Of a stretch of DNA of 64,000 nucleotides, positions 54,378 through 64,000 are shown piece after piece. This DNA is from the human T2T-CHM13v2.0 reference genome, Homo sapiens. Numbering within the stretch: position 1 is the first letter of the stretch; every line of letters begins with the position of its first letter. The notes beneath the pieces were generated by a model. That model had not been told where the DNA came from. It worked only from the letters and a program-made list of their open reading frames with translations, and did no database searches. A program made the translations under genes and the position numbers. The stretch is taken from assembly GCF_009914755.1 (NCBI RefSeq), contig NC_060926.1; one strand, written 5' to 3'.

Positions 54378-55842
54378 TAAAGAGAGACTGTTAAAAGACT
54401 TCATAATATAAAAAAAAACAAAAACAAAAACAAAAAAAAAACTTTACGCTTACCATTGCTGCATATTGTTGCAGTATAAAACACACACTTATCTGGGATC
54501 ATGAGAATACGGCAAGAATGTCCTGCGTAAACTGTAACTTTGACAGCATTTAAAAAATAAAAATCAAATTAAGTGCCTTTGAGGCCACTTCTTCCCAGTT
54601 GCCAGTTTTCTTAACCCGGTACTAAAATACTGCCACACACAGCTGCATGTCTGAGGATCATATTTAAATATTTAAAATGCATCTACAGTCTGTCTTAGTT
54701 TTCTTTATATTTGGGAAAAATTTTGAATCTTAAGTGTGAAAATGTAATCACAAATGTCTTTACCAGGAATAAAAACACATCTAGGGTAGCCAGCAAATTT
54801 AAAGCAAATAAAATATTTTGTAGTCACAGACTAATACTGAGGTCTGTAAAAAGAGTTGAATGAATAATAGACAGACATCAAGGATATATTAGTTCCAACA
54901 CCATCCATTATTGTTTCTATAACCAATAATACTTTAAAAACATTTGTTAATCAAAATAGGCTGACATTGATATAACTATTTATGTGTAAAAATAGTGCAC
55001 GATTTATCTTCCACAAAGCTAGTTTACATCCTAAGAGCTGGTAAACGCTTTTTTTGTTTTTTAATACAGACAGGGCTGAGACTTTGAAAAAAATTAAATT
55101 AAGGCATTCAAAATGGGTAAAGTTGCCTATCATGAAGCATTAGGAAACTGATATAATTAACTTTAAACTTCTTGTTACAGTAACTGCTTAAACATGAACA
55201 TGCAACTTCCATCAGGTACACAGGAATGAGTGATATAAACTCCAACATTATGGCTTTATACAAGTGCATAGTTGCAACTGCAGCAAGTAATGATATCTGA
55301 TTAATGTGTATAAAAAATAAAGTGGGAAGTTTAAAAAACCTTCTTGCAGTATTAGAGTACTATATATATATATATATGTGTGTGTGTTTATATATATATA
55401 CACAGTATAATGGTCACTTCTTAAAGATGCAGTCAATATCACTGTAGTGGAATCCATTCCCAGATTCTTCTGGTAAATGTGCTGGTGAAACCTCTCTGTT
55501 GAAGCTAGAAAAGATGTTTTCTTTAGCCTTTAACTCTTCTCAATCCTTGTGTGCACTGTAGTGTGAGCGACTGCCGAGAGAGCTTTATGGAAAAGTCTGG
55601 AAGAGTTGCATATATCCTTAGTCTATCAACCAATCATTGTTGGTTCAACCTGTTGCTTCAAAGGAGCCCAGATTTGTAATTTATATTACAGGGAAAAGGG
55701 GAACACATATATGTATGAGTGTATGTATCAGTCTCTCAGGAAAATATAGCTTTTTAATAAATTTTGGGCCATCATATTTCAGTCTTGTTTTCACTGGAAG
55801 AATACGATCACCTTGAATAATGACTGCTTTCATAGAAGGCAG

Positions 55843-55846
55843 TTAG
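55843..55846 (-). CDS. ROCK2: ROCK2 terminal exon coding part: C + TAA (completes the final Ser of ...NKPS)
   Basis: Minus-strand acceptor TTTATTTTTTCCTTTCTTTTCAG|CTAACTGCCTTCTATG. Matches my recollection of the ROCK2 stop context and the known SLC66A3-ROCK2 adjacency. Upstream coding exons are outside the window. Confidence 0.85.
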
Positions 55847-57087
55847 CTGAAAAGAAAGGAAAAATAAAGTTAGTTGATACAGTGAAATAATTTAAGAGTG
55901 TTAAATTCCTAGAAAAAGCATTCCATTCACATTATTAAACTATATAGTCTTCCAGCTACTATATTTTTTAACACTAAAATCATGCATAAACATACTTACT
56001 GTATTACTTTTCCTATAGGTACAACATGCAATTATATTCTTTCCCAAAACAACTTGGGATTTTGGAATATTAGCTACACACATTACACACACATTTTAAT
56101 ATGGTTAACAAGCTATTAGGGTTAAACAATATACCACAGAATAACTTAGAAGATAAAGTTTGATTTGGGGTTTAACTGCCAGCTGCCTCATGTAGCTGAA
56201 AGGGAAATGGGCCTATTGATCAGGTTCTACTTGGCTGTTCAACCCTAAGCCACATTTTGTTTTTCTATAAGATAGGACCAACTACATTGTTGTAGTAAAT
56301 ATATACAAGCTACTCTATGAAATCTGATTATAAATAGATACCAGTACTACCTGATTTATGTTTTGCAACTTGCTTACTTACTTAGACTAAAACACACATT
56401 ATTTCTTTTAAATCCTTCTATGTAAAAGGTTTAACTTGAGGCTCAACTTTCATTCAAATCTCCTTTAGCCACTATTAACCAAACTATTTTACATTTTCTA
56501 AAAGCACAATTCTCACAGCGTATCACTGACATTCTTCAGCAAGGGTAACATTAAATTCTCACAAAGCAAACATTTCACAGCACCACACACAAAAATGCCA
56601 AATCAGAAATAGCTATTTCACAGCACTTATTAGACTTATAAAGTTTTTATGCTTTCAATTCTTGCAAGTTGGAAATAAAAGGAGAGAGATGGAGAAAGGA
56701 ATCTCATGCTATGTTCACAAACTAATATAGCTGTAGGAACTTGAAAACGTTGTAAATTTTACTTCTCTTCTGAATATGGCTTCTTTGGAATGAACAGAAC
56801 GTATCAGAATTAACTCCTTTTGTGATTTCTACATCTCATTCCTAAGATAAATTCTAATTGTACTAAAAATTTATAGCCAATAAAGAATCTGAACATAGCA
56901 TTTCACTTTTACACTTAACATGTAAATTTCAGTTAGCAACTTTTCGAAAACTACTTTTAACTATATACTATTAAAAACAAGTTTCAAAAATAAAAAATAA
57001 TGAAAGCCCAAGTGGCAAACCACATGCACTACGTTGAAGTACTAAAATAACTGATTTTTCATTTTTTGATTTACCCCATTTATTTCT

Positions 57088-57178
57088 TCAGAAATCAAAA
57101 ACATCGTCATCATCATCACCACCACCATCAACATCATCAAATGACCAATCCCAGTCTTTAAATGCCAAATCAAGCAAT
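57088..57178 (-). CDS. ROCK2: Candidate alternative ROCK2 C-terminal exon: (R)LLDLAFKDWDWSFDDVDGGGDDDDDVFDF*
   Basis: Acceptor CCTCCTATTGCAG|A at 57178. Open in the same phase (2) as the canonical last exon. TGA at 57090-57088, then AATAAA and a GGG|GTAAAT donor at 57074. Confidence 0.6.
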
Positions 57179-59579
57179 CTGCAATAGGAGGTTTGTAAAT
57201 TTATACTCTAACACTCTTTAGAAACTGTAACTTAATGTTATGACTTAGAAATCATACTTTGAATGTGCTTGTAAGCATTTTAATTTTCCCTTCATGGATA
57301 ACAACAAGATTAAAATTAAGACGGACGCACATAGGGAAGCCTTGCCCTTTATATATAAATGCATATAATCATGTTGGCCAAGTACACTTTCCAGATATTT
57401 GAAGACAGCGATCATATTTGGGATAATAAGAAACAATCTGCTTCTCCCTCCTCACTCCCATACCCCAGATAAACACATAACCATCCTGATGCCCAGTTTG
57501 ATTTGAGAATTATGAAAGCACATTTGTCAATGTTCCCCTTCACCAAAGTGGTCAGATTGTCAGCTCAGTTTTTCCATCATAGCACCAAAAACCATGGGGT
57601 AAAAAGGGAGTAATAGAATAAGAAAGCAGCTTTCTGAATTCCAGTAGGACCCTGCCTGCTCAATGTGTCACCAAGAGCTTTGTCCTGCATATGAAAAACT
57701 AGGGACAAGGGAAAAGCCACAGGTACATAAGTAGCATTAGCAAGTCATCTTGGCTAAATTGGACTTAGAGTTGGGATATATGTGGTCTTTTCTTTCTAAT
57801 TCAATAACCTAAACTGTAATATTGCTATCATCTTTGTTTTTAAAAATAGCCACCTGGCCAGATGCGGTGGCTCACGTCTGTAATCCCAGCACTTTGGGAG
57901 GCTGAGGCGGGCAGATCACCTGAGGTGAGGAGTTCAAGACCAGCCTGGCCAACATGGTGAAACCATGTCTCTACTAAAAATACAAAAATTAGCTGGGCAT
58001 GGTGGCAGGTGCCTGTAATCACAGCTACTCAGGAGGCTGAGGCAGGAGAGTCACTTGAATCCAGGAGGCGGAAGTTGTAGTGAGCCGAGATCGTGCCATT
58101 GCACTCCAGCCTGGGGAACAAGAGTGAGACTTCGTCTCAAAAAATTAATAAATAAATAAAAATAAAAATAAATAAATAATAAAAAAAAAGCAGTAACTTT
58201 TTCATTTTTAAAACTGTGGTGTTCATGAATCAACTTGTGCCAAGGAACTCATCTGGTCCCCAAAGTCTCACCTGTAATCACTATTGTCAGTGGTTCTTAT
58301 TTACACACTTCTAAAGTAAGAAACTTTAGTGTATATGATTTACCTACTGCTCTTTATAAGGCCTCATTCCAAGAGATTTAGATATGACTGAAAAGGGCCC
58401 AAATATTTGCATTTTCAAATAAAAAACCTGAGGCGATTTCTGATACAGCTGGTTAACTTTGAGAAACACTGACAGAATAGGTTAATGGATGATTACTCTA
58501 ATTTAAAATAAACACAGCGACTCAAATTACTCTTTTAAAATGTGCTAAACACAGCACAACATTTGAGAAAACACACAAACAGATATAATTACTCACTGAA
58601 CACATATCGCAACCTGGCACACACTCACTTCTCTAGACTTATATATAATGTAACTTATAGCCATAGTTTCAGCTCTACTGCTTGGGAGATTGTGATCAGC
58701 AGGCCTTCCAGGGCATCCAAGCCTCAGCTTTAGCATAGGTTAGGAGAAAGCTGCATTGCATACCCTTTCAAAACCTTTGAAGTGTGTGCCAGTGTCACAA
58801 TCTCAAATTTAAGTCTAATCGCTAGATGCGACTGTAGTGTATGACGAGACTTCCCTTACAACCCTCTCCCTCATCCCTTCGAATCAGTCATCTAATTCTA
58901 GTTATTTCAACTGAAGAAATCTTTCCAAATCCAGGTTTATTTTCTTCGTTTTCATTGTCAAGTACTCAGTTCAGGATCTCATTAAGCCTGAATACCAATC
59001 CCTTACTGAAAGACTTCTACTTATAAATCAAAACTCCTAAGCACAGTGTACATGGAGCTTTTCAGTTGGGTTCAGACTTTCTCTCTAGTGTCACATCATC
59101 TTTTACCACTCCCTACCCTTGCCTTCTCCCAACGCCAAGCCAACACAAAATTACAAATACATAAGTAATTCTGATGACTTTGTACCTCTGCACATGACAT
59201 TTTGCTTGGAACTGATTTTCCCTTATTTGTCTGCTTGTAAAATTATCCATCCTCCATTGTTTGAGATCTTTCTTAATGTCCTCAGGCAGAATTCTCCATG
59301 CTTCCCTCGTTTCCCCAAGCGCTCTGTTCATCCCTATATTATAAACAGCATTTTACATAGTACTGTAATTGCCTGTTGCTTGACTGTCTCCACCATTAAC
59401 AGGGATATAGTTCAGGCCTGCGAAACTTATTGTCAAAGATGCTTTGGAAAGAGTGCATTTAATTTGGAGTTCTACCAGCAGTCCACAAAAGTACCCATTT
59501 CGTTTCTTAACCCGTGCCAGTTTGGCAGGTGAAAAATGGTTTTATGTTATAGTTTTAATTTAATGCTAATTTCTTAATA

Positions 59580-61211: not shown

Positions 61212-62060
61212 TAGTAGAGATGGGGTTTCACTGTGTTAGCCAGGATGGTCTCGATCTCCTGACCACGTGATCCACCTGCCTCGGCCTCCCAAAGTGCTAA
61301 TTTTGTAGGGTGCATGTCTGTAATCCCAACTACTCAGAAGGCTGAGGCAGGAGAATTGCTTGAACCTGGAAGGTGGAGGGTTAGGGTGAACCGAGATCAC
61401 GCCACTACACTCCAGCCTGGGTGACAGAGTGAGACGTCATGTCACAAAAAAAAAGAAAAAAGAAGAGAAAAAGATGTAATGATGTAATGGCAGATGACCA
61501 CAAAGAAAGACACAGAGGAAAAGTTACCAAAAATGGTTAAGTGAACATTTATGGGTTCACTTTATATTTGATGTATCTAACAAAGCCAAACTTTGTTTTA
61601 AGAAGGATACCATGTCAAATTAGTTCAACTAAAGCTAGATTGACTAATGCTAAGACTAATATTAAACAAACTCAAATGAACAGCTAGATGTTAGATCACT
61701 GCTGAGACACACCAGCAATTCTGTGCCTCTGTTTTCTTGGATGACCCTTTACCATTTCCACCCATTTGTATACTGAATGGGCTTTAGTCCAGTAGAATGT
61801 TAAAAACCATCCAGCCTGAGGCTTGATTCCTCCCTGGAACCATGCTACTCAATGAGATTTACAATTTGCCTCTCTGATTGGTTCTTCTTCTAATACATCT
61901 TCCAAGGAAAAGGTCTTTAACTGTTTAGTGCTATTTATGATCTCTCACACTTTCAAATAATGTCTTTAGAGAACAAAATATCCTCAGTTCCTTCGCTTGC
62001 TACATAATACTTTCAAATGACATACTGCAACCTCTGTTATTCTCATCTATATACCATTCA

Positions 62061-62222
<162 letters not shown>

Positions 62223-62699
62223 CTACAGAAAATAAAAACAAAAAAAAATTAGCCAGGTGTCATGGTGCATGTATGTGGTCCCACCTACTCTGGGAGGCTG
62301 AGGTGGGAGAATAATCAGTTGGGCCTGGGAGGTCAAGGCTGCAGTGAGTCATGATCGTGCCATTGCACTCCAGCCTGGGCAACAGAGTGAGACCCTGTCT
62401 CAATAATAATAATAATAATAATAAAATGCAGGTTGATTGATTCATGTAAGAGATACAGACACAATGCTAGGAGTACATGAAACAATGGAGACTCAAATGC
62501 CAAAAACAATGGAAATAATGTTGCAGATGTACAACAAAATCCAAATTATATTATAAATGTGACCACCTTTATGTTTAGAATTTCAAAGAATGTATTAAAT
62601 GAATTTTTTCACAAAATATACACTACACATTTTACAGTCAATTTTGATATTAGTTTTATTTACATGCAGATATGAGGGAAAGAAATCCTTACTACTTAC

Positions 62700-62704
62700 C
62701 GTTG
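62700..62704 (-). other. ROCK2: Candidate 5-nt ROCK2 microexon CAACG
   Basis: Minus strand TTTTGTCATAG|CAACG|GTAAGT, with a 105-nt AG-free upstream zone and UGCAUG and ACUAAU downstream. Confidence 0.5.
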
Positions 62705-64000
62705 CTATGACAAAATGTGTTTTTTAAAAAAATCAATGAAGAATGATTCACAGGGCAAGGCCAGAAGTTTTTAAAAAAAAAAAAAAGTAACAAAAATCAA
62801 AAGTAAATGTACTCTCAAATAGACCATAATGCTGATTTGGACTGGGAAAGGAAGGTATTTGTAAGTCAGTGTACATAAAAACAGCCTGTTACATAACTGG
62901 GAGCGTGCCTCATAAACTAATTCCATATATGTTATCGTATGTAGTGAAATCATTAATGTGTCAAATAGCACAAAAGAAAAAAATGTATCAAAAGGATATT
63001 TGGAGTTATTATAGTTCTAGATCTAGACAAACCCCTTCTGGAGTCTTAATCAAAAACAAATATAACAATACCTATTCTATTCCATAGGACTATTTTAAAG
63101 AGCAAATGAGATAATATATAAGAAGTTAAATGAGAGAAAAGAATACACAGAGAAGTACTTTGGAAACTGAAATCACTACACACTATAAGGTATTAAAATA
63201 CCATTTAAGCATTAATAGTTCTACAATATTAATAATAGAAATTTAATTTTCAGATGTTTTACAGAAGGCACTTGAAATGGCCTTCAGTGTCTCTGAATTC
63301 TGAGTTTCTTTAGCTTTAGTCAATAATCATTAATTTTGTTTAGTTTTATCATACCTCACACAAAATATTCAACATTTTCACTGCTGAAACACCAATTCTG
63401 CCTTTGTCATTCTAAATTATTTCCTTGAGAGATTAGTTTCAGAAAGTTTCATCTAAGATGTTTGTGATTAGAATTTCTGACAATACAGCCAATGCTATCA
63501 ATATTCATATACTGAAGGTCCTGTGTTAGGGAACCAAAAGGATACCTGAAATCAGATACCTGATCAAAGGATATGCTTTTTCCTTTAGCTAACCAAATTC
63601 TTGTGTTCATTTCATGTTCAATGGATAGCAATGTTTATAAATGCTGAAGTAGTTAGTAAGCCAAGAAATGGCTATTGTGAATCACGATATTTAACTAAAG
63701 GACTTTCACATAGCTATCCGAAAATGGCTCCATCAAAATGTTTTTGTGCATAATGATCATCCCTGACCTTACTCCATTTTCCTAACTCTACCTCAATTCC
63801 AAGGAATAACCACTTTACCCATTAGCTAATATTTGCATTTTTAAAGCTGGTCTATGTTGCTGTTAAAATCACACTCAAGTTACTGTTTTAAATTTATAGA
63901 TTTGATTTAAAACTTAAGCTGATTTTAAACCTGCCTCCCAAGTCACCCAACATAATAAAAGCTTATAATATGAAACACAGTGTGTGCACTTGACAATGTG

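What the first reader, a model, noticed from the sequence alone, without database searches (positions are those of the whole stretch)
62649..62811. Candidate 5-nt frame-shifting microexon in the ROCK2 last intron
Seen: minus strand ...CATTTTGTCATAG|CAACG|GTAAGT, a near-consensus donor only 5 nt after an AG. Upstream is a U-rich zone with no AG for 105 nt (62707-62811). Downstream are UGCAUG (62668-62663, RBFOX) and ACUAAU (62654-62649, QKI) within 50 nt. Established: long AG-exclusion zones, strong donors and downstream RBFOX/QKI sites are typical of regulated microexons. Inference: inclusion shifts the frame past the canonical stop and gives ...KPSNANCLL* (stop 55832-55830), a new hydrophobic end with a Cys at -3. 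Standard aligners miss 5-nt exons.
Basis: partly seen in the sequence, partly recalled or inferred. Interest (0 to 1): 0.8.

Follow-up and report, generated by a model that had tools for sequence, protein, structure and literature searches.

The report
Relic of ancient ROCK2 tail exon
The splice-like signals in the last ROCK2 intron are the human remains of a very old alternative exon that gives ROCK2 a different tail in other vertebrates; they do not show that a new 5-base exon is used.

Summary
AG-N(3-27)-GTRAGT on its own is common: 84 pairs in the window. The full cluster is the outlier among 339 such pairs in 220 kb.

The cluster has an ancestry. Of 182 vertebrate ROCK2-like proteins fetched, 17 end in ...NKP-S-SGPxLRIILH*. 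They come from ray-finned fishes, frogs, a caecilian, turtles, a lizard, platypus, a marsupial and camel. This match is unique in 220 kb over six frames, and 0 of 2000 simulated introns reach it.

The region is therefore the remnant of an ancient alternative C-terminal exon. In this human assembly the expected acceptor reads AC, and codon 6 is a stop.

The 5-nt exon is what splicing to the first AG after the lost acceptor would produce. That is mechanistically plausible but has no support: 0 of 182 proteins carry a NANCLL-like tail, and the mouse MicroExonator table has no matching row. RNA-seq and ortholog DNA could not be examined.

The parts
62769..62811 (-). Intron stretch before the old exon. 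It holds branch-point-like TTTAC (A at 62804) and TTGAT (A at 62797), then a T14 polypyrimidine tract (62786-62773) and an A run.
   Evidence: The pyrimidine fraction at -20..-4 of the expected acceptor is 0.82, within the 0.47-0.94 range of 19 annotated acceptors. This 43-nt AG-free stretch is of normal size for an acceptor (31 real acceptors: median 28, maximum 78).
62767..62768 (-). Place where the acceptor AG of the old exon is expected. This assembly reads AC.
   Evidence: The position follows from the orthologous tails ...NKP-S-S/T/G-G-P... The first Ser is the split codon AG|N, so the exon must start one base before the TCT codon at 62765. No ortholog DNA was seen, so this is inferred.
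62700..62766 (-). Remnant of the ancient alternative C-terminal exon. It is 67 nt if the GTAAGT donor is its 5' splice site.
62733..62765 (-). Coding remnant SGLAL*IILH*. Orthologs read SGPALRIILH*. It shows Pro to Leu at codon 3, a stop (62750-62748) where orthologs have Arg, and the old stop codon kept at 62735-62733.
   Evidence: tblastn hit and translate. It scores 9 of 11 allowed-set matches. It is unique in 220 kb over 6 frames (next best 7), and 0 of 2000 simulated introns reach 9.
62705..62706 (-). Nearby branch-point-like TTCAT (A at 62737) and TTGAT (A at 62733) lie 32 and 28 nt upstream, followed by a T7 run (62732-62726).
   Evidence: The proximal pyrimidine fraction is 0.47.
62700..62704 (-). 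CAACG, the candidate 5-nt exon. It is the last 5 nt of the old exon.
   Evidence: AGCAACGGT occurs once in the 8705-nt intron, which holds 32 AG-N5-GT sites.
62694..62699 (-). Strong 5' splice site: ACG|GTAAGT, with seven contiguous consensus positions from -1 to +6.
62663..62668 (-). UGCAUG (RBFOX motif) starting 31 nt into the downstream intron.
   Evidence: The other conserved alternative exon of this intron has one 46 nt after its donor. The intron holds 6 TGCATG in 8705 nt.
62649..62654 (-). ACUAAU, a QKI-like core with no UAAY half-site seen nearby.
   Evidence: ACTAAY lies within 50 nt of 20 of 339 pseudo-exon pairs.
62655..62660 (-). AAUAAA followed by a GU-rich stretch. This may be a poly(A) signal of a composite terminal exon. 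AATAAA occurs 11 times in this intron.
   Evidence: Not tested.
55830..55846 (-). Start of the last ROCK2 exon: the canonical C|TAA, and the TGA (55832-55830) reached after a 5-nt shift.
   Evidence: with the hub annotation.

Best explanation
The motif cluster is the human remnant of an ancient alternative C-terminal exon of ROCK2.

In many other vertebrates the penultimate exon is joined to an exon that encodes the tail ...NKP-S-SGPxLRIILH-stop. In human DNA that exon would span 62766-62700. A branch point and a T14 tract lie upstream of it. The other conserved alternative exon of this intron has the same arrangement.

In this human assembly the expected acceptor reads AC instead of AG, Pro has become Leu, and the Arg codon is a stop. 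The old tail therefore cannot be made.

The 105-nt AG-free zone is the old 43-nt branch-point and polypyrimidine region plus 60 AG-free bases of exon body (two AC bases lie between them). If the old branch point, T14 tract and donor still assemble a spliceosome, first-AG selection would yield exactly the 5-nt insertion. That step is inferred, not shown.

Shown: the human sequence, the orthologous protein tails, and the statistics. Inferred: the exon limits in other species, RBFOX control, and any residual splicing in human.
For: - The tail S[STG]G[PH]xLRI[IV]LH* occurs in 16 of the 120 proteins listed. The species are camel, platypus, a marsupial, two turtles, a lizard, a caecilian, four frogs, sturgeon, paddlefish, gar, bowfin and arowana. 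One more frog appears, giving 17 of 182 proteins held. Many are RefSeq isoforms X2 or X3.
- Human 62765-62733 reads SGLAL*IILH*. It lies on the sense strand, in the right intron, is preceded by T (AG|T = Ser) and is followed by the stop at the orthologous place.
- The match scores 9 of 11. It is unique in 220 kb over 6 frames (next best 7), and 0 of 2000 simulated introns reach 9.
- A T14 tract gives a pyrimidine fraction of 0.82, and a branch-point-like TTGAT lies 30 nt before the expected acceptor.
- With an AG at 62768-62767 the AG-free zone would be 43 nt, typical of 31 real acceptors (median 28, maximum 78).
- Both alternative exons of the intron have TGCATG within 50 nt of their donors, at 31 and 46 nt. 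The intron has 6 TGCATG in 8705 nt, so the joint chance is about 0.001 (and my arithmetic).
- The locus is single copy in the genome.
Against: - No ortholog DNA could be fetched. The acceptor position, the 67-nt length and the use of GTAAGT as donor in other species are inferred from protein ends only.
- The shared peptide is only 10-11 residues long.
- Only one placental representative, camel, shows the tail, and that is not a RefSeq model. Clustering at 90% identity hides isoforms that differ only in the tail, so the state of the exon in placentals and primates is unknown.
- Most database isoforms are computational models.
- I could not check whether AC and TGA are fixed in humans or when they arose.
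- The exon might be a terminal exon using the AAUAAA at 62660, in which case GTAAGT would not be its donor.
Confidence: 0.75

Rival explanations
1. One reading: a regulated, functional 5-nt frame-shifting microexon (62704-62700). It would be enhanced by RBFOX or QKI in brain, heart or muscle and give ROCK2 the tail ...KPSNANCLL.
For: - All motifs are present and the frame arithmetic holds.
- The site is the top outlier of 339 pseudo-exon pairs.
- The architecture fits what is described for regulated microexons: a strong 5' splice site, with the pyrimidine tract and branch point far from the AG (passages of bioRxiv 10.1101/2024.09.17.613571).
- Alternatively spliced micro-exons have T-richness more than 20 nt upstream and TGCATG enriched downstream (PMC4317164, sections read).
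- Exons under 6 nt were dropped from that catalogue, so absence from it means little.
- The relic-exon reading gives a route to it, namely first-AG use after loss of the old acceptor, with branch-point-like sites 28-32 nt upstream.
- The new stop is in the last exon, so nonsense-mediated decay is not expected.
Against: - There is no expression evidence.
- 0 of 182 ROCK2-like proteins have such a tail. This is weak evidence because of clustering.
- The mouse MicroExonator table has no CAACG row. It has only two rows for the transcript I take to be Rock2: a 12-nt annotated exon and a 19-nt novel exon.
- The proximal pyrimidine fraction of 0.47 is at background level.
- There is no UGC within 50 nt of the AG, whereas 74-79% of SRRM3/4-dependent microexons have one between branch point and AG.
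- The length is not a multiple of 3, while tissue-regulated mouse microexon clusters are 0.74 in-frame.
- The new tail has no recognised signal, and the old conserved tail is destroyed.
Confidence: 0.08
2. A pure chance cluster of splice-like motifs in a T-rich, G-poor intron stretch, with no splicing ancestry.
For: - AG-N(3-27)-GTRAGT is common: 84 pairs in the window and 339 in 220 kb.
- 8.9% of shuffles of the zone lack AG.
- 13% of GTRAGT sites have at least 2 regulator-motif families within 50 nt.
- The RNA fold is unremarkable (z = +0.73).
- By my arithmetic, hundreds to thousands of comparable clusters are expected genome-wide.
Against: The in-frame match to the conserved vertebrate tail, with its stop codon, lies right after a T14 tract in the right intron and strand. 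0 of 2000 simulated introns reach it, and it is unique in 220 kb over 6 frames.
Confidence: 0.05
3. The old exon is still used in human in another form. One form is a 112-nt exon from the next upstream AG (62813-62812), which is in frame and would end ...SGLAL*. The other is a composite terminal exon ended by the AAUAAA at 62660.
For: - The upstream AG keeps the frame: 62811 to 62766 is 45 nt plus the split codon (my reading).
- AAUAAA with a GU-rich stretch lies 40-90 nt after the donor.
Against: - The 62813-62812 AG has no pyrimidine tract before it.
- RefSeq lists no exon or transcript end here (hub table).
- AATAAA occurs 11 times in the intron.
Confidence: 0.05

Closest known systems
ROCK2 isoforms ending ...NKPSSGPxLRIILH (RefSeq X2/X3 and UniProt models in fishes, amphibians, reptiles, platypus, a marsupial and camel)
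   Same: Same gene, same intron, same strand and same reading frame. It matches 8 of 10 residues plus the stop codon, and the split Ser codon fits.
   Different: The human copy has AC where the acceptor AG is expected, Leu for Pro, and a stop for Arg. No human RefSeq transcript uses it (hub table).
The annotated 104-nt alternative ROCK2 exon (57178-57075), which encodes the acidic tail RLLDLAFKDWDWSFDD...VFDF
   Same: It lies in the same last intron and also gives an alternative C-terminus. It is also deeply conserved (20 of 120 proteins; 47 of 182). It also has TGCATG within 50 nt of its donor.
   Different: That exon is intact and annotated in human. It is probably among the "C-terminal exons" whose inclusion was reported to lower Rock2 kinase activity. 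I saw that statement only as a passage in PMC7532667 citing Singh 2014. The original paper is not held.
Neural and muscle regulated microexons (3-27 nt; SRRM3/4-, RBFOX- or PTBP1-dependent)
   Same: Strong 5' splice site, distant pyrimidine tract and branch point, long AG-free zone, and downstream UGCAUG.
   Different: No UGC near the acceptor, length not a multiple of three, no evidence of inclusion, and flanks that are conserved as a longer coding exon and not as intronic enhancers.
Use of the next downstream AG after loss of a 3' splice-site AG (first-AG scanning from the branch point; recalled textbook knowledge, no paper read here)
   Different: It lies 61 nt further on, which would shrink the exon to 5 nt. 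Whether this happens here is untested.
The constitutive 12-nt ROCK2 exon (91183-91172, encoding ESQE at residues 441-444)
   Same: A true microexon in the same gene, which served as a positive control. The mouse counterpart is listed as annotated and included in MicroExonator.
   Different: It is in frame, has a good proximal pyrimidine tract (0.71 against 0.47), and is present in the protein.

Membership tests
Regulated microexon (3-27 nt) | Exon of 3-27 nt bounded by AG and GT | tested here: met
   AG|CAACG|GT at 62706-62698. This is trivial on its own: the window has 84 such pairs with GTRAGT.
Regulated microexon (3-27 nt) | Strong 5' splice site | tested here: met
   ACG|GTAAGT. No MaxEntScan score could be computed here.
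Regulated microexon (3-27 nt) | Pyrimidine tract and branch point far from the AG, with a long AG-free zone | tested here: met
   The zone is 105 nt. 5 of about 9,360 gaps in the window reach that length, and it is longer than all 31 real acceptors. It is explained here as an old tract plus old exon body.
Regulated microexon (3-27 nt) | UGC motif between branch point and AG (SRRM3/4 type) | tested here: not met
   The nearest TGC is at 62757, 51 nt before the AG, and there is none closer. 74-79% of SRRM3/4-dependent microexons have one.
Regulated microexon (3-27 nt) | UGCAUG in the downstream intron (RBFOX type) | tested here: met
   62668-62663, 31 nt into the intron. 8 of 339 pseudo-exon pairs have one within 50 nt.
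Regulated microexon (3-27 nt) | Frame preservation (usual, not absolute) | tested here: not met
   The exon is 5 nt. Tissue-regulated clusters are 0.74 in-frame in mouse.
Regulated microexon (3-27 nt) | Inclusion seen in transcripts | not testable with these tools
   No RNA-seq, EST or long-read data were available. 0 of 182 database proteins show the predicted tail. There is no row in the mouse MicroExonator table.
Ancient ROCK2 alternative exon (tail SSGPxLRIILH) | Lies in the last intron on the sense strand, in the frame set by the penultimate exon | tested here: met
   62766-62733, which is 1.8 kb into the 8705-nt intron. AG|T gives Ser, then SG....
Ancient ROCK2 alternative exon (tail SSGPxLRIILH) | Encodes the conserved tail followed by a stop | tested here: inconclusive
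   9 of 11 positions including the final stop are kept, which is significant. The reading frame is broken by a stop at codon 6. This shows homology, not function.
Ancient ROCK2 alternative exon (tail SSGPxLRIILH) | Canonical acceptor AG directly before the exon | tested here: not met
   62768-62767 reads AC, and there is no AG for 105 nt.
Ancient ROCK2 alternative exon (tail SSGPxLRIILH) | Polypyrimidine tract and branch point upstream | tested here: met
   T14 at 62786-62773, pyrimidine fraction 0.82, TTGAT with A at 62797.
Ancient ROCK2 alternative exon (tail SSGPxLRIILH) | Orthology at the DNA level (aligned flanks, donor conserved) | not testable with these tools
   No vertebrate genome other than this one could be read.

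The most novel reading that the evidence does not exclude
In the human lineage, loss of the acceptor AG has shrunk a 67-nt alternative exon into a 5-nt frame-shifting microexon. The 67-nt exon is conserved from ray-finned fishes to mammals. The old branch point, T14 tract, GTAAGT donor and downstream UGCAUG would still assemble a spliceosome in RBFOX-rich tissues, and the first AG downstream would be used. Human ROCK2 would then swap the ancestral tail SSGPxLRIILH for a lineage-specific ...SNANCLL. This would be a worked example of a microexon born by exon erosion.
Probability: 0.1. Interest if true: 0.7.

Novelty: new member of a known kind. Interest (0 to 1): 0.35.

Why it matters
The C-terminal region of ROCK2 folds back on the kinase and holds it off (general knowledge), so alternative tails are plausible regulators. 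One passage reports that inclusion of Rock2 "C-terminal exons" lowers kinase activity in myoblast fusion (PMC7532667 citing Singh 2014).

The database proteins show three vertebrate-wide C-termini: S*, the acidic tail, and SSGPxLRIILH*. The human sequence explains why the third is not annotated in human, because its exon is broken here.

If the break is specific to humans or primates, it is the loss of a very old ROCK2 isoform. In that case mouse or zebrafish work on that isoform would not carry over to human.

The case also carries a methodological warning. A textbook "microexon signature" can be the shadow of a decayed longer exon, so motif-based microexon calls should be checked against orthologous protein ends.

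If the 5-nt product exists, it would show one route by which microexons arise.

Tried and rejected
  - "ROCK2" + "microexon" gave 21 papers, of which 17 were listed. "ROCK2" + "micro-exon" gave 7.
  - In the five of these that I opened, ROCK2 appears in the main text only in citations of, or one sentence about, Singh 2014.
- I found no printed description of a ROCK2 microexon in the last intron or of the SSGPxLRIILH tail.
  - Singh 2014 (Mol Cell) and Irimia 2014 (Cell) are not held, so they may describe these exons.
- **Supplements.**
  - MicroExonator tables have no "Rock2" by name, but the main table gives coordinates and transcript ids, not gene names.
  - A search by transcript id (recalled) and by sequence gave two rows and no CAACG row.
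  - 12 of 18 supplement files of PMC7935315 have no ROCK2; the other 6 were not searched.
  - Supplements were closed, so PMC8627023 and Li 2015 Supplemental File 1 were not seen.
- **Mouse 19-nt novel exon.** There is no human counterpart within 3 mismatches in the window.
- **Known RNA families.** There are none at the site. Only Alu-like SRP hits at 62108-62403.
- **RNA structure.** Nothing unusual (z = +0.73).
- **Repeat origin.** The stretch is single copy.
- **Third protein search** (lengths near). It gave 13 hits. 11 of them run into the intron and end in R*, one fish-like hit has another tail, and one frog hit carries the SSGP tail. It was uninformative for human transcripts.
- **Prenylation.** A CaaX reading of NANCLL is rejected because the Cys is third from the end (rule recalled).
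- **Recursive splice site.** Rejected because the AG is not directly followed by GT.
- **Not used.** Complex prediction, structure prediction and fold search do not bear on the question.
Full report
**1. Observation**

On the minus strand the window reads ...cattttgtcatAG|CAACG|GTAAGT. The AG is at 62706-62705, the five bases at 62704-62700 and the donor at 62699-62694. The previous AG is at 62813-62812, so 62811-62707 (105 nt) is AG-free. TGCATG lies at 62668-62663 and ACTAAT at 62654-62649, starting 31 and 45 nt into the downstream intron.

The penultimate ROCK2 exon lies just outside the window. I fetched it and found that it ends at window coordinate 64552 with ...AAA CCT AG|gtaata. With the last exon start, the canonical end is ...KPS*. 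A 5-nt insertion gives ...KPSNANCLL*, stopping at 55832-55830.

The Cys is third from the end, so this is not a CaaX box (recalled rule).

**2. Is it more than chance?**

- The core pattern is not unusual. The window has 48 GTRAGT sites. 40 of them have an AG 3-27 nt upstream, which gives 84 pairs.
- I added 156 kb to cover the rest of ROCK2. The resulting 220 kb holds 339 such pairs on the two strands. This site has the longest AG-free zone of all and is the only pair with TGCATG and ACTAAY within 50 nt.
- Zones of 105 nt or more follow 5 of about 9,360 AGs in the window. Among 31 real acceptors the median is 28 and the maximum 78. Those are 19 annotated in the window plus 12 ROCK2 acceptors that I mapped with a ROCK2 protein.
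- Against this, the zone is G-poor, and 8.9% of its own shuffles lack AG.
- If the regulator motifs are not named beforehand, 13% of 202 GTRAGT sites show at least two of ten motif families within 50 nt (the family list is recalled).
- By my arithmetic, a genome-wide scan should meet hundreds to thousands of similar clusters by chance.
- The immediate acceptor context is poor. The pyrimidine fraction at -20..-4 is 0.47, against 0.47-0.94 for 19 annotated acceptors and a mean of 0.485 for all AGs.
- No TGC lies within 50 nt of the AG.

At this stage I held the site to be a chance pseudo-exon.

**3. The turn**

As a stand-in for transcript and conservation data, I searched the protein database with the 70 residues of the penultimate exon (P0001). 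The search returned vertebrate ROCK2 proteins: 762 hits, of which 120 were listed.

Their ends after ...NKP fall into these classes:

| Tail class | Count of 120 |
|---|---|
| Canonical S* | 30 |
| R* (read into the intron) | 35 |
| Stop at NKP | 21 |
| Acidic tail RLLDLAFKDWDWSFDD...VFDF | 20 |
| S-SGPALRIILH* or S-SGHALRIVLH* (camel, platypus, a caecilian) | 3 |
| Other, each unique | 11 |
| NANCLL-like | 0 |

The acidic tail is the translation of the human annotated 104-nt exon 57178-57075.

A local tblastn of those tails against the 220 kb placed SGPALRIILH at human 62765-62736, read there as SGLAL*IILH.

A second search, scored on the last 40 residues of the camel protein, listed 16 representatives with this tail. 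They are camel, platypus, the marsupial Antechinus, two turtles, a lizard, a caecilian, four frogs, sturgeon, paddlefish, gar, bowfin and arowana. Many are RefSeq isoforms X2 or X3. A further frog came from the third search. In all, 17 of 182 proteins held have this tail, 47 have the acidic type, and none is NANCLL-like.

**4. Strength of the match**

Human 62765-62733 translates to SGLAL*IILH*. I scored it against the residues allowed at each position in the 16 orthologs, final stop included. It matches 9 of 11. The next best place in 220 kb over six frames scores 7. Of 2000 first-order Markov simulations of the 8705-nt intron, none reached 9 and two reached 8.

The match is on the sense strand, in the correct intron, and in the frame fixed by the penultimate exon. 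The base before it is T, so AG|T gives the first Ser.

Directly upstream lie a T14 run (62786-62773; pyrimidine fraction 0.82 at -20..-4) and a branch-point-like TTGAT 30 nt before the expected acceptor. The stretch is single copy.

**5. What is there**

The region is the human counterpart of a deeply conserved alternative C-terminal exon of ROCK2. Its first base must be 62766.

If the GTAAGT at 62699 is its donor, the exon is 67 nt, with the stop 33 nt before its end. Inclusion would then not be expected to trigger nonsense-mediated decay (recalled 50-55-nt rule).

UGCAUG lies 31 nt after this donor. The other conserved alternative exon of the intron has one 46 nt after its donor. With six TGCATG in 8705 nt, the chance that both 50-nt windows hold one is about 0.001 (my arithmetic for six sites). 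This supports RBFOX control of both exons, but it is an inference.

In this assembly the exon is broken in three ways:
- The expected acceptor 62768-62767 reads AC.
- Codon 3 is Leu where orthologs have Pro or His.
- Codon 6 is TGA where orthologs have Arg.

The hub's RefSeq table lists no exon here.

The 105-nt zone thus resolves into a normal 43-nt pre-acceptor stretch, the two AC bases, and 60 AG-free bases of exon body.

**6. Where this leaves the 5-nt exon**

If the old branch point, T14 tract and donor still recruit U2 and U1, selection of the first downstream AG would give exactly CAACG. This is textbook scanning behaviour, recalled and not read here.

Branch-point-like TTCAT and TTGAT with a T7 run also lie 32 and 28 nt before that AG. 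The architecture also resembles what is described for regulated microexons (passages; sections of Li 2015).

The idea is therefore mechanistically reasonable, and more so than I thought at step 2. It remains without evidence:
- No protein tail matches. This is weak evidence, because clustering at 90% hides small tail differences.
- The mouse MicroExonator table has no matching row.
- The length is not a multiple of three.
- The new tail has no known signal.

In that mouse table, the transcript I take to be Rock2 has only a 12-nt annotated exon and a 19-nt novel, poorly conserved, low-inclusion exon in what is probably the same intron. The identity of the transcript is supported by the human 12-nt exon at 91183-91172, which encodes ESQE at residues 441-444.

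Li 2015 discarded exons under 6 nt. I put detectable use at about 0.1 and selected function lower.

**7. Limits**

- No vertebrate DNA other than this genome, no RNA-seq and no variation data could be read.
- The exon limits in other species are inferred from protein ends.
- Only one placental representative, camel, shows the tail, and it is not a RefSeq model. I therefore cannot say whether the exon is alive in placentals or when the human lesions arose.
- Three changes in about 36 nt are compatible with long neutral decay, but the count is too small to date anything.
- Singh 2014, which may describe these exons, is not held. I saw only one sentence about "C-terminal exons" in PMC7532667.
- Supplements were closed.

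**8. Verdict**

The best explanation is a decayed ancient alternative exon whose surviving splice signals mimic a microexon signature. The 5-nt exon is a testable by-product hypothesis.

As a kind of thing it is known: lineage-specific loss of a conserved alternative exon. The particular case appears undescribed in the papers I could search.

Noticed in passing
window 57075-57178 (-): The annotated 104-nt alternative exon encodes RLLDLAFKDWDWSFDDVDGGGDDDDDVFDF*. This acidic tail is found from amphibians and reptiles to mammals (20 of 120 proteins; 47 of 182). TGCATG lies 46 nt after its donor.
   Followed up: partly
L008 region; window coordinates 91183-91172 (-), outside the window: A constitutive 12-nt ROCK2 exon, GAAAGTCAAGAG, encodes ESQE at residues 441-444. 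It is flanked by a good pyrimidine tract and gtatgt. It differs by one base from the mouse exon listed as annotated and included in MicroExonator.
   Followed up: yes
mouse chr12:16978673-16978692 (mm10), from PMC7821500 supplement 1: A novel 19-nt microexon with 42 reads, conservation score 0.08 and cluster "Excluded". It lies in what is probably the last Rock2 intron. No human counterpart within 3 mismatches was found in the window.
   Followed up: partly
window 62101-62432 (+): An Alu element, seen as SRP-RNA-like Rfam hits below the gathering score. It is antisense to ROCK2 and lies about 270 nt downstream of the relic exon's donor.
   Followed up: no
window 62610-62660 (-): AAUAAA at 62660-62655 is followed by a GU-rich stretch, 40-90 nt after the GTAAGT donor. 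This could be an intronic poly(A) site or the end of a composite terminal exon. AATAAA occurs 11 times in the intron.
   Followed up: no
proteins P0003-P0073 etc.: 35 of 120 database ROCK2 proteins end in ...NKPR. That is the reading of the penultimate exon straight into the intron (AGG TAA). These are probably gene models that miss the 4-base coding part of the last exon, or intron-retaining transcripts.
   Followed up: partly
window 58198-59333 (-): The other RefSeq alternative exon (1136 nt) would add RDEQSAWGNEGSMENSA* after ...KP. Its acceptor has the weakest pyrimidine tract of the annotated set, 0.47.
   Followed up: no
window 61400-63000 (-): Three of the five AG-free gaps of at least 98 nt on the minus strand fall within 1.5 kb: 98 nt ending at 62918, 105 nt ending at 62706 and 141 nt ending at 61418. 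The local sequence is generally AG-poor on the sense strand.
   Followed up: no
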